Assembly: GCA_944359885.1 (NCBI GenBank)
Contig: CALVTC010000001.1
Location: 1-57,320 of the forward strand
From: an uncultured Bacilli bacterium
Lineage (GTDB): Bacteria; Bacillota_I; Bacilli_A; RF39; UBA660
Length of the DNA: 57,320 nt
Reading direction: 5' to 3'
Under the pieces are notes generated by a model. The model saw only the letters and a program-made list of their open reading frames with translations, did no database searches and was not told the DNA's origin. Positions 4,649 to 33,477 of this stretch are shown here, one piece after another. Each line of letters begins with the position of its first letter. The stretch's first letter is position 1. The position numbers were made by a program, and so were the translations under genes.

Positions 4649-7600
4649 GTGTTAGATAATATTAAGAATTGGTGGAAGCAGGAGAGAAAGTCTAGCAAAG
4701 TATTGATGATTTTTTCTTGTTTATTTATTGCTGTATTTGTTATTACGATTGCTAATTTTGGTATTAGTTTTGCAGCAGCATTACCAGAGACTTTAGTATC
4801 GGATACTCTTTTTCGAGATGATGGATATCGCGTTAATTTATATCCAGAGTTAAGAGGAGAAGACATTATTTCTTTAACTCCTTTTGTTGCAACGGATACT
4901 TCTAGCAATACTTATCATATGTATTGTTTAGAGAGAACATTAGAGTGGTATGATGATGCTACGGTTACAAAAGGGGAACAATTAGATTCAGGATATGCAT
5001 ATATTATTCAACATGGTTATCCTACTGTTTCATTGACGGATGAGGGAGACTGGGTAAATTCTTATTTAACACAGGTTGCAATATGGTTATATCAAGATCG
5101 TTCTCAAGGAGTTTTAGATACAGTAGATGGTTCTTTAACTGCTAATCAAAAAAGAGCTATCATGCAAAATAATACATATTATCCTATTATAGATTCTTTG
5201 GTTACTGGGGCGATTGATGCGAAAGAAAATTATAGTAATGTAACACCTTCCATTACGGTTTCTTCTGGAGATTTTCACCTGGATAGTTCAGCTACTTATT
5301 TAGAGACTAATTATTTATCTGTTTCTTCTAATGTTAGTTTTAAGACCTATACTGTTGCTCTTGATATGGCAAATGCTCAAGTAGTAAATGAAGATGGTGA
5401 TGTTATTTCTTCTAATGATACATTTACTAGTGGGGAGAAGTTTAAAATTCGCCTTCCTTTAGCCCAATTAGATGGGACGGACTTAGATTTAAAGATTAGT
5501 ATTACTACGGATTATGAAATGGCAGTTGCATATCAATATAATCCTCCTGCTGAATATGACGATATGCAAAAATCTATGGCGTCTGCTGTTACGATTGAGA
5601 CAAGGTCTGCAGTTTCTTCTACTACAGTAGTGATACCAACAGGTAGTTTAACGATTGAAAAGGTCGATAGTGTTTCTAATAATTTACTTCCGGGGGCGGA
5701 AATTGAAGTTTATCGTGTTATAGGTACTGGTAATGAAAAAATGATTGATAGCTTTACTACTTCTAATGAAGCGAAAGTTATTTCTAATCTTTTACCTGGG
5801 CAATATAAAGTAGTTGAAAAGAGTGCACCAGATGGTTATTTGATTGATGTTAGTGATACATCTGTTTTGATTAATGCATCTAATTTGAATGTTACTGCGC
5901 GTCTTATGAATGAACTGATAGATATAAAGGTGCAAATTCAAAAGGTTGATGAGGATACTAATTTGCCTCTTGCTGGAGCAGTCATTAAGATTGTAGATTC
6001 TACAGGAAAACAGGTTACTAGTTTTACTTCTGAAAATGGCTACACTACTATTTCAGGGTTAGATATTGGAAAATATCAAGCAATCGAAGTAAGTGCACCA
6101 GATGGTTATTATTTAGATTCTACTCCAGTAGATTTTGAAGTAACTGCAGAAGAACAAGAAGTTTCAATTACTATGAAAAATAAGAAAAATTTGGTACAGA
6201 TATTAAAGACTGATCAAGATGGTGAGGCAATTGCAGGTGCTGTTTTAAGAGTTGTTAATGCTGATACCGGTGCTTCGGTTGATCAATGGACGACTTCTAC
6301 AGAAGCACATGACTTAACTGGAATTGCTCCAGGTAATTATCGAGTAGAAGAAGTAAGTCCACCTAGCGGATATGCCTTGAATTCTAATTCTATTCCTTTT
6401 ACAATTACAAATACAATGACAGATAAAATAGAGATTCATTTTCCTAATACAAAGAGTCAAATTATGATTTCTAAGGTTGATGAACAAGGACAAACTCTTG
6501 CAGGAGCAAAGCTAGAAATTTATAATGAATCAGGTGATAAAGTATATGAATTTACTAGTGAGGATACTCCTACTGTTATTGAAAAATTAGAAGCTGGTCG
6601 ATATACTTTGAGAGAGGTAGATGTACCAGATGGCTATCAGTTAAATAAAGAACCAGTAAGTTTTGAAGTTGCTGTTGATACTACAAACTTACAAGTAACA
6701 ATGAAAAATGTGAAAAATTCTGTTTCTTTTTATAAGATTGATAGGGATACTGAGGGTCCTGTGAGTGGTGCTGTTCTTCGTTTGGTTGATGAGGAAGGCG
6801 AGGTTATTGACGAATGGACTACTGATAATGAAGCACATGTCATTGAGGGTTTAAAAAATGGTACTTATTATTTGGAAGAAGTAAGTGCTCCAAATGGTTA
6901 TATTCGTAATACCGAACGAATTGAAGTAGTGGTAGATGATAATACTACAACTTCTGCTTATACAATGTTTAATCAAAGTATTGCTGTACGAATTGGTAAG
7001 GTTGATAGTGAAACTAAAGATTTGGTTGCAGGGGCAACTTTAGAGCTTTTAAATTCTAATTATGAAGTTATCTCTACTTGGACTACGACAACAGAATATC
7101 GTGTTTTTGATAATTTGAGTGAAGGAAAATATTATGTTAGAGAAACTATTGCACCTAAAGGTTATGTTTTAAATGATGAGCTTTTAAGTTTTACAGTAGA
7201 GGAAGATAATCCTTCTGTTACGGTTTCTTTTGAAGATAAGCAAACGACTGTAAAACTTGGAAAAGTTGATGCTAATACTGGTAATTATGTTGCTGGTGCT
7301 GTATTGAAACTTTCTCGTCAAGATGGTACTATGGATGATGTTACTTTTGTTAGTGAAGAGAAGGCGACTGTCTTTAGAGGCCTTGCTAGTGGTGTATATA
7401 TATTAGAGGAAGTAAGTGCTCCAGATGGTTACATTACTAGTAATTCAAAAATTACTTTTGAACTTGATAATTTAGGAAAGACAAAAAATATTGCTTTGAA
7501 GAGTGATTTGATTTCTATTTCTGTTTCTAATAAGAGGTTAGAGATTGATACAAACGGTGTTGATGGTTATGAATTTCAGTTGATGAGTCACGACGGGAGT

Positions 7601-8164
7601 CTTCTTGATACTTATTCTATTAGTGACGAAGTGTTTGTATCTGATGTTTTAGAAAATGGTAATTATTTATTAAAGCAAACAAAAGTACCTGATGGTGTTG
7701 TATTAAATAATAATGCTTATTCTTTTGTTATTTCTGATTCTGATGGTTCTGATGTTGTGTATTTTACAAATGATTATACTAAAGTAGACTTTGAAAAGAA
7801 GGAAATGATAGGTGATAAGCAACTAGCAGGTGGACACTTTATTTTAAGAAATGAAGAAGGAGATATGGTTGCAGAATGGGATTCTACTGATACGGCAAAG
7901 AGAATTGAAAAACTTGTTCCTGGTACTTATACTTTAAGTGAAGTTAGTTCTCCTGATGGATATCAGTTAGATGATTCGTTACTTACTTTCCAGGTAAATG
8001 CTACTGCTGATGTACAAACTGTTACTATGTTTAATGCCTTGAAAGTTGATGTTCCTAATACATCTGAAAATTCTTTACTATATTTATTTGTTGGTACTGT
8101 GATTATGATGACTGGATTTAGTGTTCTTGGTTATGTTTATTTTAAAAGGCGTGGTGATGTATGA
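4649..8164 (+). CDS. giant cell-surface adhesin: N-terminal thioester (TQxA) domain plus about 9-10 Cna-B/SpaA-type repeats and a C-terminal sorting-like signal
   Basis: GTG start with RBS aaggtgag. Signal/anchor helix. Thioester Cys in HMYCLE (4925-4927) and the TQVAIW motif (5069-5086). Repeated (T/K)KVD...GA.L...(S/V)APDGY modules. The C-terminus is VPNTSEN plus a hydrophobic helix plus KRRGDV. Confidence 0.8.
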   Translation: MLDNIKNWWKQERKSSKVLMIFSCLFIAVFVITIANFGISFAAALPETLVSDTLFRDDGYRVNLYPELRGEDIISLTPFVATDTSSNTYHMYCLERTLEWYDDATVTKGEQLDSGYAYIIQHGYPTVSLTDEGDWVNSYLTQVAIWLYQDRSQGVLDTVDGSLTANQKRAIMQNNTYYPIIDSLVTGAIDAKENYSNVTPSITVSSGDFHLDSSATYLETNYLSVSSNVSFKTYTVALDMANAQVVNEDGDVISSNDTFTSGEKFKIRLPLAQLDGTDLDLKISITTDYEMAVAYQYNPPAEYDDMQKSMASAVTIETRSAVSSTTVVIPTGSLTIEKVDSVSNNLLPGAEIEVYRVIGTGNEKMIDSFTTSNEAKVISNLLPGQYKVVEKSAPDGYLIDVSDTSVLINASNLNVTARLMNELIDIKVQIQKVDEDTNLPLAGAVIKIVDSTGKQVTSFTSENGYTTISGLDIGKYQAIEVSAPDGYYLDSTPVDFEVTAEEQEVSITMKNKKNLVQILKTDQDGEAIAGAVLRVVNADTGASVDQWTTSTEAHDLTGIAPGNYRVEEVSPPSGYALNSNSIPFTITNTMTDKIEIHFPNTKSQIMISKVDEQGQTLAGAKLEIYNESGDKVYEFTSEDTPTVIEKLEAGRYTLREVDVPDGYQLNKEPVSFEVAVDTTNLQVTMKNVKNSVSFYKIDRDTEGPVSGAVLRLVDEEGEVIDEWTTDNEAHVIEGLKNGTYYLEEVSAPNGYIRNTERIEVVVDDNTTTSAYTMFNQSIAVRIGKVDSETKDLVAGATLELLNSNYEVISTWTTTTEYRVFDNLSEGKYYVRETIAPKGYVLNDELLSFTVEEDNPSVTVSFEDKQTTVKLGKVDANTGNYVAGAVLKLSRQDGTMDDVTFVSEEKATVFRGLASGVYILEEVSAPDGYITSNSKITFELDNLGKTKNIALKSDLISISVSNKRLEIDTNGVDGYEFQLMSHDGSLLDTYSISDEVFVSDVLENGNYLLKQTKVPDGVVLNNNAYSFVISDSDGSDVVYFTNDYTKVDFEKKEMIGDKQLAGGHFILRNEEGDMVAEWDSTDTAKRIEKLVPGTYTLSEVSSPDGYQLDDSLLTFQVNATADVQTVTMFNALKVDVPNTSENSLLYLFVGTVIMMTGFSVLGYVYFKRRGDV
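5642..8040 (+). repeat. tandem array of diverged ~85-95-aa Cna-B/SpaA-like domain repeats inside the adhesin CDS
   Basis: Recurrent motifs at the protein level: SAPDGYLID, SAPDGYYLD, PPSGYALN, VPDGYQLN, SAPNGYIRN, APKGYVLN, SAPDGYITS, VPDGVVLN, SPDGYQLD. The nucleotide copies are diverged. Confidence 0.7.
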
Positions 8165-8792: not shown

Positions 8793-8816
8793 ATCATAGA
8801 GGATGATACTTTATGA
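8793..8816. repeat. left inverted repeat (IRL) of the candidate invertible switch
   Basis: ATCATAGAGGATGATACTTTATGA is the exact reverse complement of 9084-9107 (24/24, checked by hand). It is internally near-palindromic. Confidence 0.9.
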
Positions 8817-9083
8817 TTCTAAATTTGTACCATATTTATACTATTTGTTATCTTAAATATACAATATTTAATAGTTTTTTACAATTATAAAAGAATCTTT
8901 TTTAAAAAATTGTGTTAAAAAAGCAAGAAAACGGTTGTATATTTAGTCGAATTTTTGGTCAAAAAAATATTTTTTTTGATTGAAATAGTACAAAATATTT
9001 TATTTTTCGATAAAACAGAAATATAATTTAATTAGTCAAATTTTTAGTCATATGCAAGAAAAATCTTATAAAATAATGTTTTC

Positions 9084-9107
9084 TCATAAAGTATCATCCT
9101 CTATGAT
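9084..9107. repeat. right inverted repeat (IRR) of the candidate invertible switch
   Basis: TCATAAAGTATCATCCTCTATGAT is the exact reverse complement of 8793-8816. Confidence 0.9.
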
Positions 9108-9135
9108 GATGGTATGTGGAGAAATGAGGGATTTT

Positions 9136-11742
9136 ATGAGTGATAAAATTAAATTATATAAAAAAGAAGTGGTTGTTTTTGGAATTTTATTGATTGTTAT
9201 AGTGGTGGGTTTTATTACTCCATCTTTTGCGGTATCAACACCGGTATCTTCTGTTATTATTACTTCAGAAAATACTAGTTACGAAAATAATGATTCAGGT
9301 TCCTGGCAAGTAGAGAAAAGTGGAAAATGGGTAGAAAAAGGAACTGCTGAAGTTAGGTTTGATGTATCTACTGTTCCGATGACTGGAAATTCTTATACAG
9401 ATATTATCTTTGTATTAGATATTTCCAGTTCTATGGTGGGAGACAAACTAGAAAGAGTAAAACAAGATACAATAGAGTTATTAGAAAGTTTGTTATCTAA
9501 TGGAGAAAATAGAGCAGCTTTGATTACCTTTGATACAGAGTCACAAATTGTATCAGGCTTAACGAATGATAAGGATTTATTAACACAAGAAGTGAATAAT
9601 ATACTGGCAACTGGAACTACCAATTATTACCAAGCATTAGTTAATGTAGATACGATTTTAAAAGATTATGAAAAAGAAGAAAATAGAGAGATGATTGTTC
9701 TATTCTTAACAGATGGATATCCTAATGAAGATACACCGAATCAAATTGCACAATATCGGTATTTAAAAAGTGAGTATCCTTATATTACCATTAATGGGAT
9801 TCAGTATGAAATGGGAGGAAGTATCTTAGATCCGGTTAAAGAAGTCAGTGACAATCAATTTATAGCTGATATGGAAACACTAAACAATGTTTTGTTTGAT
9901 GCGAGTGTAGTATCAGCTCCTTATGATAGCTTTCAGATTGTAGATTATATTGAGAATGATTATTTTATTTTGGAAAGTGAAGATAATATCACTGTAAGTG
10001 AAGGAGAAGTGACGTTAGAGGAAGAAAACGGATTACAGAAGATAACTTGGACGATATCCAATTTTAGATCAGGAAGTAATGCAAATCTTTCTATGAATTT
10101 GAAGTTAAAAGATGAACTGATCGGTCAAGGAGGAGTATATCCAACAAATAGAAGAGAACAAATAATATCAATGATACAAAGTCAAAATGAAAATGAAAAT
10201 GTGAATAGCACCTTAACTCCAGCGTTACAGGAAAACTATCAAGTAATCTATGATGGAAATGCACCAGATGGATGTAGTGTAGAAAATATTCCAGAAAAAG
10301 AGAATCATTCTGTATTTGACGTGGTGTCTATTTCAGAAGAACAACTGAGTTGTAGTGGATATGAGTTTAAGGGATGGGAGATAGTAACGGATAACATTAC
10401 CAAGGTGAATGATGATTATTTTATTATGCCAGAGAGTGATGTTATACTTAGAGCGAAATGGGGTAAAGTTTCAATATCAAAATCCATGAATGGAGAAGTT
10501 TATACTGCGCCAACACTATATAGTATAATGCAAAATGAAGCAGTAATGGATAATATATCTAGTACCTATGTATCATCAAGTAACGGAATTGATTTTAGTG
10601 AAGATTCTTCTGATACGAATGGAAAAGGAGTTTATACAAGAGCAGGAACGGAAGATGATGAGTATCCTGTACATTACTATCGAGGTGATGTTGATAATAA
10701 TCATGTAAAATTTGCTGGATTCTGTTGGAGAACAGTAAGAACCACATCAACAGGAGGAGTAAAATTAATCTATGACGGAGTACCTCGTAGCGATGGAAGT
10801 TGTAATAACATAGGTGAAGCATCTCAAATAGGGATAAGCGATTTTAATAGCAATATTGATTCTCCAGCAGATATAGGTTATATGTACGGAACAAGATATA
10901 TATATGGTGGAAGAAGTGGTAGTAGTACAAATGGATATATTTATGGGAATGATGTTACTTGGGATGGTTCGCAGTATACATTAATAGATACATATACAAG
11001 TAGAGGTTGGGAAACAGATAGAACAACCTTGGCAACTAAATATCATTATACTTGTTTATCTGCATCATCGACTTGTACAAGTGTATATTATATTCATTAT
11101 TTCGGACTTCCTAATTATATATATTATCTAGCGCTAAACAATGGTGTTAATATTGAAGATGCTAAGAATGAAATGTTTACCAATACCAATAATTCTACTG
11201 CTAAGAACGTAATTGATACTTGGTATGAAGAAAATATGACAGATTATATAAGATATTTAGAAGATACTGTGTGGTGTAATGATAGAAGTATTATATCAGG
11301 TGCTTTAAAAGGAAAAGACGCGGATGGAACAGAGTTGAATTATTTTGGAGCATATGGAAGAAATGTGGATAATATTAGTCCAAGTTTAGAATGCTCAAAC
11401 CGAAATGATTCTTTCACAGTAAATAGTGAGAATGGAAATGGTGCATTAACCTATCCAATAGCGATGCTAACAGCAGATGAATTAACATTAGCGGGGAATG
11501 GGTGGAATGGTTATAGTAGTGATTCTTATTTAACTATTGGAGAACATTACTGGTCTTTCTCTCCTTACACTTATGATTACTGCCGCGCTATCGGGTTCCG
11601 CGTCTTCGCGGGTGGTTACCTTTCCAACAACCGTGTGGATGTTGTGAATGGCCTTCGTCCTTCCGTTTCTCTTGCGCCTGGAATGATGGTGTCTGCAGGA
11701 GATGGAAGTAGCATATCACCATATGAAATTTTCACTTACTGA
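9136..11742 (+). CDS. secreted/surface vWA-domain protein with a Listeria-Bacteroides-repeat domain and a C-terminal lectin-like (DUF1566/DUF6273-type) domain
   Basis: The ORF is open from 9052. The best start is ATG 9136 (RBS GAGGGA), followed by the signal peptide KKEVVVFGILLIVIVVGFITPSFA. vWA MIDAS motif DIIFVLDISSSM. GYEFKGWE...LRAKW repeat. C-terminal YWSFSP...GLRPSVSL motif. Confidence 0.75.
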   Translation: MSDKIKLYKKEVVVFGILLIVIVVGFITPSFAVSTPVSSVIITSENTSYENNDSGSWQVEKSGKWVEKGTAEVRFDVSTVPMTGNSYTDIIFVLDISSSMVGDKLERVKQDTIELLESLLSNGENRAALITFDTESQIVSGLTNDKDLLTQEVNNILATGTTNYYQALVNVDTILKDYEKEENREMIVLFLTDGYPNEDTPNQIAQYRYLKSEYPYITINGIQYEMGGSILDPVKEVSDNQFIADMETLNNVLFDASVVSAPYDSFQIVDYIENDYFILESEDNITVSEGEVTLEEENGLQKITWTISNFRSGSNANLSMNLKLKDELIGQGGVYPTNRREQIISMIQSQNENENVNSTLTPALQENYQVIYDGNAPDGCSVENIPEKENHSVFDVVSISEEQLSCSGYEFKGWEIVTDNITKVNDDYFIMPESDVILRAKWGKVSISKSMNGEVYTAPTLYSIMQNEAVMDNISSTYVSSSNGIDFSEDSSDTNGKGVYTRAGTEDDEYPVHYYRGDVDNNHVKFAGFCWRTVRTTSTGGVKLIYDGVPRSDGSCNNIGEASQIGISDFNSNIDSPADIGYMYGTRYIYGGRSGSSTNGYIYGNDVTWDGSQYTLIDTYTSRGWETDRTTLATKYHYTCLSASSTCTSVYYIHYFGLPNYIYYLALNNGVNIEDAKNEMFTNTNNSTAKNVIDTWYEENMTDYIRYLEDTVWCNDRSIISGALKGKDADGTELNYFGAYGRNVDNISPSLECSNRNDSFTVNSENGNGALTYPIAMLTADELTLAGNGWNGYSSDSYLTIGEHYWSFSPYTYDYCRAIGFRVFAGGYLSNNRVDVVNGLRPSVSLAPGMMVSAGDGSSISPYEIFTY
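11548..11681 (+). other. candidate DGR variable region (VR): adenine-poor, NNC-codon-rich patch
   Basis: Hand counts over 11551-11681: about 14 A versus about 47 T in 131 nt. GC is 58% over 11581-11680. 15 of 29 codons from 11548 end in C. There is a 33-nt A-free run at 11649-11681. No TR or RT in the window. Confidence 0.45.
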
Positions 11743-30903: not shown

Positions 30904-33477
30904 TCATTCCTTTCTTGTTACTTCTTTTTTTAGTTCGTATAAGTAATTTAGTGCTTCCATTGGCGTCATTTCTAGAGGGTTAATTTCTTTTATTTTTTCT
31001 TCTATTTTATTCTTTTTAGGTTCTGCTTTGCTTTCAGATAATTCAAAAAGTGATGTTTGTGTAAATGTTTCTTTTTTTACGTTTTTATGTTCATATATGT
31101 TTAAGATTTCATCTGCTCTTTTGATTAAACTTTCTGGAAGGTGTGCAAGTGATGCGACATGGATACCGTAGCTTTTATCTACTGCACCATTTTTAACTTT
31201 GTGTAAGAATGTTATTTTACCATCTTTTTCTATTGCTGATACATGAACATTCTTTAAATGTTTTAAATCTTTTTCTAAGACGGTTAATTCGTGATAATGA
31301 GTTGAAAACATTGTTTTTGCTTTGATTTTATCGTGAATATATTCAAGTATTGCCTGGGCAAGACTCATTCCATCATAAGTTGCTGTACCGCGACCTAGTT
31401 CATCAAATAAAATTAGACTATGTTCTGTTGCTTCACTAATTGCTGTATTTGCTTCTTTCATTTCGACCATGAAAGTAGATTCTCCACTTACTAGGTCATC
31501 GCTTGCTCCAATTCTTGTGAATATCTTATCAAATATTGGCATTGTACAGCTCTTACATGGAACAAAACAACCTATTTGTGCCATAATTACAGTAATTGCA
31601 CATTGTCTCATATAAGTAGATTTTCCGGCCATGTTTGGCCCTGTGATTAATAAAATATCTGTTGTTTTATCCATAATAATGTCGTTTGGAATATATTTAT
31701 CTTTCATAACTTGTTCTACTACTGGATGGCGACAGTCAATCATTTTAATTGTTTTTTCTTCGGTAATAGTTGGGCGAACAAATTTATATTGATCGCTTAC
31801 GATAGAAAATGATTGTAGCATATCTACTTCGCTGATGATTTTGGCAATTCTTTGAAGCTTAGATATATACCTTTTTACTACTTCTCTTATATCCATAAAT
31901 AATTTGTATTCTAAGTTGATTATTTTTTCTTCCGCTCCTAAAATGATATTTTCTTTTTCTTTTAATAATGGGGTTGTAAATCTTTCACAATTTGCTAGAG
32001 TTTGTTTTCTATCATACCCAAATTCTTCTTTTACTAGGTGTGTTTGTCCTTTTGATACTTCAATATAGTAACCAAATACTTTATTGAATCCAACTTTTAA
32101 ATTTTTGATTCCAGTTCGTTCTTTTTCTTTTTGTTCTAATTCTAATATAAAGTCTTTAGAACCACTACTAATTCTTTTTAGCTCGTCTAACTCTTCGTTA
32201 TACCCTTCTTTAATTAAATGTCCTTCATGTAGTGTAAATGGAGCATCTTCTAGTATCGTTTTATCTAGTAATTGATATAGTTCTTCTAATGTTTCTAATT
32301 TTTTATCATAGTTTATTTCTTCTAATATTTTTTTTATTGCAGGAAGATGAGCAAGAGAGTTTTTTAATTGTAATAAGTCTTTGGCATTTAAATTTCCATA
32401 AGTGATTCTTCCTGCTAGACGTTCTAAATCGTAGACATTTCCTAGTTCTTTGATTAAATCATCGCGTAGAATAAACTCTGTTGATAGTTTTTCTATCATG
32501 TCATAGCGTCTTTTTATTTCGTCTTTATTTGTTAATGGGTTTTCTATATTATATTTTAAATATCTAGATCCCATGGCAGTTTTATTTTTATCTAATAACC
32601 ATAATAAACTATATTGACGTTCTCTATTTCTTAGAGTTTCTGTTAATTCTAAGTTTCTTTTTGTATTGCTATCAAATTCTAAGTATTCACTACTTTTTAT
32701 TACTCTACATTTTTGTAAGTGATGTAGATCTCCTTTTTTGGTATCAATAATATAATAAAGGAGGTGTTTTAAAGTAGATGTAATTCTAATATCTTCTATA
32801 TCTTTATAGATGTATTCGTAATTTTTATCTTCTAATTCTTCTTTTGTTATTGTTACTAAAACATTGTAGTTACTTCTTAATGTTTCTATTATTTCTCGAT
32901 TGATAGAGTCGTTTACAATTACTTCTTTAAAGCCGTGTTTTACTACTTCTTTAATTACTTTATCTTTTTCTCCTTCTATTAACATGGCATAAACTTCACC
33001 TGTTGAAATATCTGCAAAGCTAATTCCATAGCAGTAGTCAAAATTATAGATGTTAGCAATAAAATTATTTGATTTAGAGTCCATATTTTCATCAATTCTA
33101 GTCCCTTTGGTAATAACTTGTACTACATCTCTTTTGACCATTCCTTTGGTTTCTTTGGGATCTTCTAGTTGTTCACAAATTGCAACTTTATATCCTTTTT
33201 CAATTAAAGTATCTACATAGGAAGCATAGGCATGATGAGGAACTCCACACATTGGAACTCTTTCTTCTAGGCCTGCTTGTTTTCCTGTTAGAGTTAATTC
33301 TAGAACGCGAGATGCAATGATGGCATCTTCAAAGAACATTTCATAGAAATCCCCCAGGCGAAAAAAGATAATACTATCTTCGTATTTATCTTTTATCTCC
33401 ATATACTGTTGCATCATTGGACTTAATTTTTCTCTTTGTACTTCACTACGTTTCATTTTTTTCACCACTAGTACCAT
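30904..33477 (-). CDS. mutS: DNA mismatch repair protein MutS
   Basis: SPMMQQYMEIK, FFRLGDFYEMFFEDA mismatch-binding motif, Walker A GPNMAGKST, DELGRGTATYDG, THYHEL. Confidence 0.95.
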   Translation of the reverse strand: MVLVVKKMKRSEVQREKLSPMMQQYMEIKDKYEDSIIFFRLGDFYEMFFEDAIIASRVLELTLTGKQAGLEERVPMCGVPHHAYASYVDTLIEKGYKVAICEQLEDPKETKGMVKRDVVQVITKGTRIDENMDSKSNNFIANIYNFDYCYGISFADISTGEVYAMLIEGEKDKVIKEVVKHGFKEVIVNDSINREIIETLRSNYNVLVTITKEELEDKNYEYIYKDIEDIRITSTLKHLLYYIIDTKKGDLHHLQKCRVIKSSEYLEFDSNTKRNLELTETLRNRERQYSLLWLLDKNKTAMGSRYLKYNIENPLTNKDEIKRRYDMIEKLSTEFILRDDLIKELGNVYDLERLAGRITYGNLNAKDLLQLKNSLAHLPAIKKILEEINYDKKLETLEELYQLLDKTILEDAPFTLHEGHLIKEGYNEELDELKRISSGSKDFILELEQKEKERTGIKNLKVGFNKVFGYYIEVSKGQTHLVKEEFGYDRKQTLANCERFTTPLLKEKENIILGAEEKIINLEYKLFMDIREVVKRYISKLQRIAKIISEVDMLQSFSIVSDQYKFVRPTITEEKTIKMIDCRHPVVEQVMKDKYIPNDIIMDKTTDILLITGPNMAGKSTYMRQCAITVIMAQIGCFVPCKSCTMPIFDKIFTRIGASDDLVSGESTFMVEMKEANTAISEATEHSLILFDELGRGTATYDGMSLAQAILEYIHDKIKAKTMFSTHYHELTVLEKDLKHLKNVHVSAIEKDGKITFLHKVKNGAVDKSYGIHVASLAHLPESLIKRADEILNIYEHKNVKKETFTQTSLFELSESKAEPKKNKIEEKIKEINPLEMTPMEALNYLYELKKEVTRKE

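What the first reader, a model, noticed from the sequence alone, without database searches (positions are those of the whole stretch)
9136..11742. One surface protein may carry two independent variation layers (ON/OFF inversion plus C-terminal hypervariation)
The gene encodes a signal peptide, a vWA domain with an intact MIDAS motif (DISSSM), a Listeria-Bacteroides repeat (GYEFKGWE...LRAKW), and a long C-terminal domain that ends in the VR-like patch. There is no wall- or membrane-anchoring motif at the C-terminus. If both the inverton and the DGR hypotheses hold, expression and binding specificity of a single ligand-binding protein are diversified separately. I am not aware of that combination being described for vWA-lectin architectures.
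Basis: inference. Interest (0 to 1): 0.6.

Follow-up and report, generated by a model that had tools for sequence, protein, structure and literature searches.

The report
Switchable adhesin gene with fossil hypervariable patch
This surface-adhesin gene very probably sits behind a reversible DNA on/off switch, but its "hypervariable" tail is a frozen relic of a mutagenic retroelement that no longer acts on it, so the two variation layers are not both active on this gene.

Summary

**Layer 1, inversion: well supported.**
- The 24-bp perfect inverted repeats (8793-8816 / 9084-9107) are one copy of a site family, TCATARAG-N7-CTYTATGA. It has 31 exact sites in this 1.37-Mb MAG and 0 for the reversed-pattern control.
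- There are 13 complete pairs, almost all upstream of vWA adhesin paralogs.
- The switch interiors are homologous, carry a conserved promoter, and occur in both orientations relative to the gene.
- Sister genomes carry a tyrosine recombinase inside the same repeats. It co-occurs with the motif in 5 of 5 motif-bearing genomes and 0 of 15 others.
- In the window the promoter faces away from the gene, so the switch is probably OFF.

**Layer 2, DGR: historical only.**
- The patch 11560-11661 matches, codon for codon, the template repeats of DGR cassettes that flank homologues elsewhere. It has 17/17 NNY codons at template AAY sites and 14% A against 37% in the rest of the gene.
- No cognate template exists in the assembly, in 80 related genomes, or in viral contigs.
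- The patch is invariant in four independent metagenomes.
- In the loci examined, DGR-linked homologues lack the switch and switch-linked ones lack a cognate cassette.

Earlier notes of this scan on this same window covered both components. None concerned other DNA.

The parts
8793..8816 (+). Left (gene-distal) inverted repeat. The core recombination site at 8794-8816 is TCATAGAG-GATGATA-CTTTATGA: two 8-bp half-sites around a 7-nt asymmetric spacer.
8817..9083 (.). Invertible segment of 267 nt, homologous to the interiors of 12 other switches in the genome.
8856..8884 (-). Conserved promoter P1 (TTGTAA-17-TATATT), reading out through the left repeat and away from the adhesin gene. This is the putative OFF state.
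8943..8961 (+). First TTAGTC(A/G)-N-(T/G)GTCA double motif. It is conserved in all switch interiors and may be an accessory or arm-type site.
9032..9050 (+). Second TTAGTCA-N6-TAGTCA double motif. It overlaps a weaker candidate promoter, TAGTCA-18-TAAAAT (9045-9074), that faces the gene.
9084..9107 (+). Right (gene-proximal) inverted repeat, 29 nt upstream of the ATG.
9118..9130 (+). Ribosome-binding region, GGAGAAATGAGGG.
9136..11742 (+). Adhesin CDS of 868 aa: signal peptide, vWA domain, B-repeat-like region and a DGR-target-type C-terminal domain.
9400..9753 (+). vWA domain (aa 89-206) with MIDAS DISSS at 9418-9432.
10237..10467 (+). Listeria-Bacteroides / InlB B-repeat-like segment (aa 368-444), below the Pfam cut-offs.
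10645..11730 (+). C-terminal domain homologous to the variable protein of the genome's own DGR on contig C6 (34% identity, E=3e-56 over 385 aa).
11560..11661 (+). Orphan (fossil) DGR variable region: 34 codons, SPYTYDYCRAIGFRVFAGGYLSNNRVDVVNGLRP.

Best explanation
The gene encodes a secreted or surface vWA adhesin. Its N-terminal half resembles pilus-tip adhesins. Its C-terminal domain belongs to a family that diversity-generating retroelements (DGRs) diversify in other lineages.

**Expression.** Expression is probably set by a tyrosine-recombinase invertible promoter switch at 8793-9107. This is one of at least 20 such switches in the genome, nearly all of them in front of paralogous adhesin genes. 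Recombination between the two inverted 8-7-8 core sites flips a 267-nt segment that carries a conserved promoter. In the assembled state the promoter points away from the gene, which I read as OFF.

**C-terminal patch.** The patch 11560-11661 was written in the past by adenine-specific mutagenic retrohoming from an AAC-rich template. The gene now has no cognate template or cassette, and the patch is frozen.

**Overall.** This lineage appears to get adhesin diversity from a repertoire of phase-variable paralogs. Other lineages keep a single DGR-diversified copy.

**Shown:**
- the repeats and the site family
- both orientations among paralogs
- the recombinase-motif co-occurrence in sister genomes
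- the scaffold match to real template repeats
- the absence of a template in everything searched
- the invariance of the patch in four samples

**Inferred:**
- that inversion happens today at this locus
- which orientation is ON
- that the recombinase gene is present but unassembled in this MAG
For: **Switch**
- The repeat is 24 nt and perfect.
- The motif has 31 exact sites here, 32 and 12 in two sister species, 0-1 in the other 38 genomes, and 0 for the reversed-pattern control.
- There are 13 complete pairs. In 11 of 13 the two arms have exactly complementary spacers, although the spacers differ between loci.
- The interiors align and share TTGTAA-17-TATATT.
- That promoter faces away from the gene at C1, C23, C24, C31, C33, C49, C59 and C17. 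It faces the gene at C6, C45 and C91.
- The C6 copy reads promoter, repeat, AAAGGAG, ATG.
- A copy with decayed repeats keeps the promoter facing its gene in three samples.
- A 359-366-aa tyrosine recombinase lies inside the same repeats next to a vWA gene in G009, G010 and G012.
- Orthologues of at least 70% identity occur in exactly the 5 other motif-bearing genomes and in 0 of 15 genomes without the motif.

**Fossil variable region**
- Homologue clusters P0009, P0063 and P0103 are hypervariable only in the aligned 34-aa patch.
- Those genes are followed by template repeat, bAvd and reverse transcriptase. Their mismatches are adenine-specific: 18/19, 16/19 and 14/18.
- The window patch aligns gap-free to those templates. 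It has 17/17 NNY and 11/17 NNC codons at template AAY sites, against 6.8% NNC in the rest of the gene.
- No template was found in the assembly with an A-tolerant scan.
- None was found in 21 genus genomes, 60 family genomes or viral contigs.
- The patch differs by 0-1 nt, never at an A, in three other samples.
Against: - Inversion at this very locus is therefore unobserved, and only one orientation of this copy was seen.
- The MAG is 73% complete. It holds only a C-terminal remnant of a paralogous recombinase (contig C38). The switches could be frozen here, or a cognate template and reverse transcriptase could lie in unassembled DNA.
- A second, weaker promoter-like element (TAGTCA-18-TAAAAT, 9045-9074) faces the gene in the present orientation, so OFF is not certain.
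- The four samples that share the patch may be epidemiologically related.
Confidence: 0.7

Rival explanations
1. Both layers are active. A cognate template repeat and reverse transcriptase lie in the unassembled 27% of the genome (or on a mobile element) and still diversify the patch, while the inverton switches expression.
For: - The patch still carries a fresh DGR scar of NNC codons and 14% A. It is the only paralog patch in the genome, besides the active C6 variable region, with this composition.
- The genome has a working-looking DGR on C6, with 17/17 mismatches at A.
- A second reverse-transcriptase fragment lies on C28.
- The MAG is incomplete.
Against: - The patch is identical in four independent assemblies. 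The exceptions are two single non-A changes.
- No matching template exists in the assembly, in 80 related genomes or in viral contigs.
- The C6 template has a 36-codon scaffold, against 34 here, and shows no nucleotide similarity.
- Downstream of the gene is a convergent Impact_N gene, not template-avd-RT.
Confidence: 0.08
2. The repeat-flanked elements are MITE-like mobile insertions or dead relics. They are not switches that invert today.
For: - They are multicopy elements of about 300 bp with terminal inverted repeats.
- Many contigs end at or near them.
- No full-length recombinase is present in this MAG.
Against: - Nearly all copies with an assembled flank sit about 29-35 nt upstream of the start codon of one gene family, not at random.
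- The arm spacers co-vary within a locus (11 of 13 exactly complementary) while differing between loci. A tyrosine recombinase needing overlap identity would produce this pattern, but independent decay of transposon ends would not.
- The associated enzyme in sister genomes is a tyrosine recombinase inside the same repeats, not a transposase.
- Both orientations occur.
Confidence: 0.06
3. The switch does not turn the gene off. It swaps between two outward-facing promoters, the strong conserved P1 and the TAGTCA-type P2, so the present orientation gives a different expression level or regulation rather than silence.
For: A second promoter-like element with conserved position lies at the opposite end of all interiors and faces the gene in the window.
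Against: - The -10 of P2 is poorly conserved between copies.
- The TAGTCA doublets also flank the recombinase gene in the large version of the element. That suggests protein-binding sites rather than promoters.
- The locked copy kept P1, not P2, facing its gene.
Confidence: 0.1
4. The A-poor, GC-rich patch is not DGR-derived. It arose by gene conversion or transfer from a GC-richer donor, or by selection for aromatic and small residues.
For: No template was found anywhere.
Against: - The patch aligns without gaps, codon for codon, to real template repeats.
- Its changes are concentrated at template adenines: 64% of A sites differ against 29% of non-A sites.
- It has 17/17 NNY codons at AAY positions.
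- Homologues vary at exactly these positions under demonstrable DGRs.
Confidence: 0.04

Closest known systems
Mycoplasma penetrans mpl (P35) lipoprotein family with individual invertible promoters (Horino et al. 2003, as summarised in PMC2268961)
   Same: Both are a large surface-protein gene family scattered over the chromosome. Most members have their own short invertible promoter flanked by short inverted repeats, and tyrosine recombinases are implicated.
   Different: - The organism here is an uncultured Bacilli lineage, and the cargo is vWA adhesins rather than lipoproteins.
- The sites are 8-7-8 with locus-specific spacers.
- The small switches look like miniaturised copies of a 1.3-kb invertible segment that carries the recombinase gene itself.
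- Nothing has been tested experimentally.
E. coli fimS switch (FimB/FimE) and Clostridioides difficile RecV-controlled switches
   Same: Each uses a tyrosine recombinase, short inverted repeats, and an invertible element of about 300 bp upstream of an adhesin or surface-structure gene.
   Different: - fimS is a single locus.
- In the C. difficile cwpV switch, as I recall, regulation works through a terminator in the leader rather than a moving promoter.
- Here at least 20 loci share one site family, and the candidate recombinase is a longer integrase-like protein with about 66 extra residues N-terminal to the Pfam-matched SAM-like domain.
Bacteroides fragilis multi-locus promoter inversions (global invertases acting on polysaccharide loci)
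   Same: One recombinase class acts globally on many dispersed promoter switches.
   Different: To my knowledge Mpi is a serine recombinase. The odd 7-nt spacer and the embedded enzyme here point to a tyrosine recombinase. The targets are proteins, not capsule loci.
DGR variable proteins (Bordetella phage Mtd, Treponema TvpA, Legionella LdtA; gut Bacteroides pilus-adhesin DGR targets)
   Same: The variable region is C-terminal and ends in a G-x-R-P-type motif. The template is AAY-rich, and homologues of this protein carry the canonical target, template, avd and reverse-transcriptase order with adenine-specific mismatches.
   Different: The window copy has no template or cassette and does not vary. 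The fold of its C-terminal domain could not be assigned here.
vWA pilus-tip adhesins (Mfa5, SpaC, RrgA, GBS104)
   Same: They are the best structural matches of the predicted model (Foldseek E 3e-20 to 3e-12). Some homologues sit in sortase or SpaA-pilin operons.
   Different: This protein has no C-terminal sorting signal, and no sortase or pilin gene is adjacent to it.

Membership tests
Invertible promoter switch (inverton) driven by a tyrosine recombinase | A pair of inverted repeats brackets a short intergenic segment upstream of the regulated gene. | tested here: met
   The 24-nt perfect repeat has 267 nt between its arms, and the right arm is 29 nt from the ATG.
Invertible promoter switch (inverton) driven by a tyrosine recombinase | A promoter lies inside the segment, and its direction changes with inversion. 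| tested here: met
   TTGTAA-17-TATATT is conserved in all 13 aligned interiors and was also detected in the partial interiors of 7 of the 10 single sites. It is a consensus match only, and no transcript data exist.
Invertible promoter switch (inverton) driven by a tyrosine recombinase | Both orientations are observed. | tested here: inconclusive
   Both orientations occur among paralogous copies in one assembly.
Invertible promoter switch (inverton) driven by a tyrosine recombinase | A cognate site-specific recombinase is present. | tested here: inconclusive
   The enzyme is found inside the same repeats in sister genomes and co-occurs with the motif in 5 of 5 genomes against 0 of 15. This MAG holds only a remnant of a paralog.
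DGR target (variable protein under active diversification) | A template repeat matches the variable region except at template adenines. | tested here: not met
   An A-tolerant scan of the whole assembly found none. IUPAC pattern searches of 81 genomes and of viral contigs also found none.
DGR target (variable protein under active diversification) | A DGR-type reverse transcriptase, with avd, is present in the genome. | tested here: met
   Contig C6 carries a 371-aa reverse transcriptase, an Avd-like ORF and its own template and variable region with 17/17 mismatches at A. That template is unrelated to this gene.
DGR target (variable protein under active diversification) | The variable region lies at the C-terminus of a domain homologous to proven targets. 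| tested here: met
   The domain is 34% identical (E=3e-56) to the C6 target. Its scaffold is the same 34 codons as in the cassette-linked homologues.
DGR target (variable protein under active diversification) | The patch is hypervariable between otherwise near-identical copies. | tested here: not met
   Four samples show 0-1 nt differences, none at an A.
DGR target (variable protein under active diversification) | The variable-region domain has a C-type-lectin-like fold. | tested here: inconclusive
   The full-length model is confident (pLDDT above 90 in the C-terminal domain), but vWA matches dominate the Foldseek hits. The domain-only model failed at pLDDT 42. Cassette-linked homologues give only sub-threshold DUF6273 hits.
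vWA (MIDAS) adhesin | A vWA domain carries the DxSxS metal-site motif. | tested here: met
   Pfam VWA and VWA_2 match, DISSS is present, and S97 and S99 are invariant.

The most novel reading that the evidence does not exclude
Inversion and DGR hypermutation are two interchangeable, and occasionally combined, strategies in this adhesin and surface-protein family. The window gene would be a recent convert from DGR diversification to a phase-variable paralog repertoire.

A true double layer may exist elsewhere in the genus. In sister species G002, a recombinase-carrying segment sits directly upstream of the operon whose last gene is diversified by an intact DGR. That segment is bounded by a related 8-7-8 site pair, TCATWATA-N7-TATTAYGA.

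Alternatively, the window patch itself could still be rewritten from a template in unassembled DNA.
Probability: 0.2. Interest if true: 0.7.

Novelty: new variant of a known kind. Interest (0 to 1): 0.45.

Why it matters
If the reading holds, one protein family shows two routes to adhesin diversity:
- continuous hypermutation of a single copy by a DGR
- an expanded set of paralogs, each with its own reversible promoter

The window gene appears to be caught in transition, since it still carries the DGR scar.

The work also defines a recognisable switch site and a candidate recombinase for a little-known group of small-genome gut Bacilli. These switches may contribute to the fragmented, low-completeness assemblies of those genomes.

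The specific claim of the finding, two layers acting at once on one protein, is not supported here. A paper search for the two mechanisms together found none that describes the combination. A candidate for it was noticed at another locus in a sister species.

Tried and rejected
- **Exact-protein look-up of the window protein.** It is not on record under the 868-aa start. The 896-aa call is P0122.
- **Same-locus flips.**
  - C6 against L062 turned out to be the same assembly.
  - The three P0003-cluster contigs are a locked copy, all in one orientation.
  - Contigs C18 and C88 merely overlap by 77 nt inside one switch.
- **Recombinase candidates in the MAG.**
  - C64 (273 aa) was rejected by its phyletic profile.
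  - XerC- and XerD-like genes (C23 and C1:20239-21147) occur in every genome.
  - The small serine recombinase on C14 was judged unlikely, from general knowledge of recombinase sites, because of the odd 7-nt spacer. It was not tested.
- **Metagenome scan for a template.** I used a fully degenerate (base-or-A) pattern that matched only poly-A runs, and this wasted the single scan. A repaired pattern on viral contigs found nothing.
- **Other template searches in the MAG.** An AAC-density scan and BLAST with foreign templates found no hidden template.
- **Domain-only structure prediction.** With 9 sequences it gave pLDDT 42 and was discarded. Foldseek on the full model returned only vWA matches.
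- **Upstream of the C6 DGR operon.** The repeats there belong to an IS-like element, not an inverton.
Full report
**The object**

The ORF 9136-11742 (+) encodes 868 aa.
- It starts with a typical signal peptide, whose predicted cleavage follows SFA at residue 32.
- It has a vWA domain (Pfam VWA_2 1.8e-15, VWA 7.7e-14; aa 89-206) with an intact DxSxS MIDAS motif, DISSS.
- It has a segment that matches the Listeria-Bacteroides / InlB B-repeat only below Pfam's cut-offs.
- About 400 C-terminal residues have no Pfam or NCBIfam hit.
- There is no C-terminal sorting signal.

An AlphaFold2 model built on 40 homologues is confident (mean pLDDT 86.9). Its best structural matches are vWA pilus-tip adhesins: Mfa5, SpaC, RrgA and GBS104.

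**Layer 1: the switch**

The repeats are 24 nt, perfect, and 267 nt apart. The right arm is 29 nt from the ATG.

They are not an isolated coincidence. Each arm is a core site, TCATARAG-N7-CTYTATGA, made of two 8-bp inverted half-sites around a 7-nt asymmetric spacer. The site counts are:

| Genome(s) | Exact sites |
|---|---|
| This 1.37-Mb MAG | 31 |
| Sister species G010 | 32 |
| Sister species G009 | 12 |
| Three further congeners (G005, G012, G015) | 1 each |
| The other 35 genomes searched | 0 |
| Reversed-pattern control | 0 |

- **Arrangement.** In the MAG, 13 loci form complete inverted pairs 258-396 nt apart. Ten more single sites lie near contig ends, so the switches often coincide with assembly breaks.
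- **Spacers.** Within a locus the two spacers are exactly complementary in 11 of 13 pairs, yet spacers differ between loci. A recombinase that needs overlap identity between partner sites would produce this pattern. Independently decaying transposon ends would not.
- **Position.** Wherever the flank is assembled, the switch sits about 29-35 nt upstream of a paralogous adhesin gene, with one exception. At C12 the nearest downstream gene is a different kind of protein about 370 nt away. The adhesin genes share the signal peptide and vWA module but carry different C-terminal modules. Some have the DGR-target-type domain. Others (C24, C59) have repetitive C-terminal regions that by eye resemble leucine-rich repeats.

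**Anatomy and state of the switch**

The 13 interiors align. Near one end they share a very well conserved promoter, TTGTAA-17-TATATT. The 13-mer TATAGTATATTTA within it is almost invariant. This promoter reads out through the adjacent repeat. The interiors also share two TTAGTCA-N-TAGTCA doublets.

| Direction of the promoter | Copies |
|---|---|
| Away from the gene | C1 (the window, 8884 to 8856 on the minus strand), C23, C24, C31, C33, C49, C59, C17 |
| Toward the gene | C6, C45, C91 |

- The C6 copy reads promoter, repeat, AAAGGAG, ATG.
- A paralog with decayed repeats (the P0003 cluster) keeps this promoter facing the gene in three independent samples.

These two cases are my basis for calling that orientation ON and the window's orientation OFF. 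The call is an inference. A weaker promoter-like element at the other end of the interior (9045-9074) faces the gene, and I cannot exclude that it acts.

**The enzyme**

The MAG's own tyrosine recombinases fall into three groups:
- Xer-like genes that are present in every congener
- phage-type integrases
- C64, which is absent from the other motif-rich genomes

The sister genomes gave the answer. In G009 (contig C37) and G010 (contig C42), a 359-366-aa tyrosine recombinase gene lies inside a 1.3-kb segment bounded by the same core sites, directly upstream of a vWA gene. G012 has the same arrangement with one decayed arm. That large element has the same layout as the small switches: doublet, gene, doublet, promoter, repeat. 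The small switches therefore look like miniaturised copies of it.

Orthologues of at least 70% identity occur in exactly the five other genomes that carry the motif and in none of 15 congeners without it.

This MAG, at 73% completeness, holds only a C-terminal remnant of a paralogous recombinase on contig C38. I infer that the true gene sits on an unbinned short contig, but this is not shown.

**Layer 2: the patch**

The patch is 11560-11661, 34 codons from SP to RP.

| Measure | Patch | Rest of the gene |
|---|---|---|
| Adenine | 13.7% | 36.7% |
| GC | 53% | 33% |
| C at third codon position | 41% | 6.8% |

It is the most A-poor stretch of its size on the + strand of the whole window.

- **Homology to a known target.** The C-terminal domain is homologous (34% identity, E=3e-56) to the variable protein of the MAG's own DGR on contig C6, and the patch aligns with that variable region. 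In that DGR, template and variable region differ at 17 positions, all of them template adenines.
- **Active DGRs on homologues.** Among 90%-identity clusters of full-length homologues, three (P0009, P0063, P0103) are hypervariable only in the aligned patch, with 11-23 variable columns per 25 against 0-2 in most other parts of the protein. Their genes are followed by template repeat, bAvd and reverse transcriptase. Mismatches there are adenine-specific: 18/19, 16/19 and 14/18.
- **Scaffold match.** The window patch aligns gap-free, codon for codon, with those foreign templates. At their 17 AAY codons it has 17/17 NNY and 11/17 NNC codons.

The patch is therefore a genuine DGR variable-region scaffold that carries the scar of adenine mutagenesis.

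**Why the patch is not active**

- Downstream of the gene is a convergent Impact_N gene, not a cassette.
- An A-tolerant scan of every position of the assembly finds no sequence whose non-A bases match the patch.
- Foreign templates have no BLAST match in the MAG.
- A base-or-A IUPAC pattern, allowing up to 3 mismatches, finds only the patch itself in 21 genus and 60 family genomes. A stricter version finds nothing in viral contigs.
- The C6 template has a different length (36 codons) and shows no nucleotide similarity.
- Orthologous copies from three other samples (ERZ24773322, ERZ16268262, ERZ2641578) share the same downstream synteny. They differ from the window in the 102-nt patch by 1, 0 and 1 nucleotide. 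None of these changes is at an adenine, and the rate is no higher than in the flanks.

Other paralog patches in the MAG have drifted toward genome composition. Only the window's patch and the active C6 variable region keep the DGR signature. The loss therefore looks recent.

| Group | Loci examined | Result |
|---|---|---|
| Homologues from hypervariable (DGR-linked) clusters | 11 (L020-26, L039-42) | None has the switch motif |
| Switch-linked homologues | Window, L003, L031-33, L035, L052-54, L062, and the MAG's paralogs | None has a cognate cassette |

The C6 paralog lies 2.5 kb from the C6 reverse transcriptase, but its patch is unrelated to that template.

On present data the two mechanisms are alternatives within the family. 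They are not partners on one gene.

**A twist noticed late**

The genus has a second, paralogous system, with sites TCATWATA-N7-TATTAYGA.
- In G002, an inverted pair of these sites brackets a 384-aa recombinase directly upstream of the operon whose last gene is diversified by an intact DGR.
- G009 has the recombinase in the opposite direction relative to that operon.
- In this MAG the corresponding segment is interrupted by an IS-like element.

This is a better candidate for a real inversion-plus-DGR combination, but I did not test it further.

**Verdict**

The switch is real as a family and probably functional. The variable region is real but orphaned.
- A paper search for the two mechanisms together found none that describes the combination.
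- The closest described system for the switch family is the M. penetrans mpl promoter-inversion repertoire (PMC2268961).
- Earlier notes of this scan on the same window reached compatible conclusions on the components. I re-derived them independently, except the claim that a sister copy occurs in both orientations at a single locus, which I could not reproduce.

Noticed in passing
G002:C28 (L190 9980-11444); G011:C19 (L191 1732-4629); G009:C78 (L189 1-1470); own genome C6:37297-37319, C38:405-427, C50:1703/2569: A second, paralogous 8-7-8 site family (TCATWATA-N7-TATTAYGA) brackets a paralogous tyrosine recombinase directly upstream of the operon that ends in the DGR-diversified 580-604-aa protein. 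This may be a true inversion-plus-DGR locus in G002. In this MAG the segment is interrupted by an IS-like element.
   Followed up: partly
Own genome C6:31671-32393 (L066 7672-8394): Besides the template repeat (31794-31902), the C6 DGR has two extra non-coding template-like copies: rep2 at 31988-32131 and rep3 at 32164-32393. They include the downstream flank and carry many substitutions, about half of them at adenines. It looks as if a duplicated template had itself been mutagenised.
   Followed up: partly
L003 9265-11883 against own genome C17:22812-24034 and window 9136-11742: The closest homologue contig is a mosaic. It is 100% identical to the C17 paralog locus up to about codon 170-190, then about 100% identical to the window gene and its downstream synteny. 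This is either recombination between paralogs within the conserved vWA module or an assembly chimera.
   Followed up: partly
Own genome C28:~6040-6730 (L002 1282-1971): A second DGR-clade reverse-transcriptase fragment (229 aa, with YMDG in place of YxDD) lies next to a MobV-like relaxase gene. It is probably a decayed copy on a plasmid-like element.
   Followed up: no
Own genome C38:150-340: A C-terminal remnant of a tyrosine recombinase is preceded by non-coding sequence. It is 85% identical to the G009:C78 paralog over 62 aa.
   Followed up: yes
Own genome C24:14057-16279 and C59:4535-7522: Switch-controlled paralogs share the vWA N-terminal half. In place of the DGR-target-type domain they carry repetitive C-terminal regions that by eye look like BspA-type leucine-rich repeats. 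The switch family thus governs adhesins with exchangeable binding modules.
   Followed up: no
Window 4649-8164: The upstream neighbour is a 1171-aa adhesin with a thioester domain and nine SpaA/Cna-B repeats. It ends in a VPNTS motif followed by a hydrophobic and basic tail, like a cell-wall sorting signal.
   Followed up: no
L023 3492-4220; L039 4706-7542; L041 3871-6752: DGR-linked homologues sit in sortase or SpaA-pilin operons, which supports a pilus-tip-adhesin role for the family even though these proteins lack a C-terminal sorting motif.
   Followed up: no
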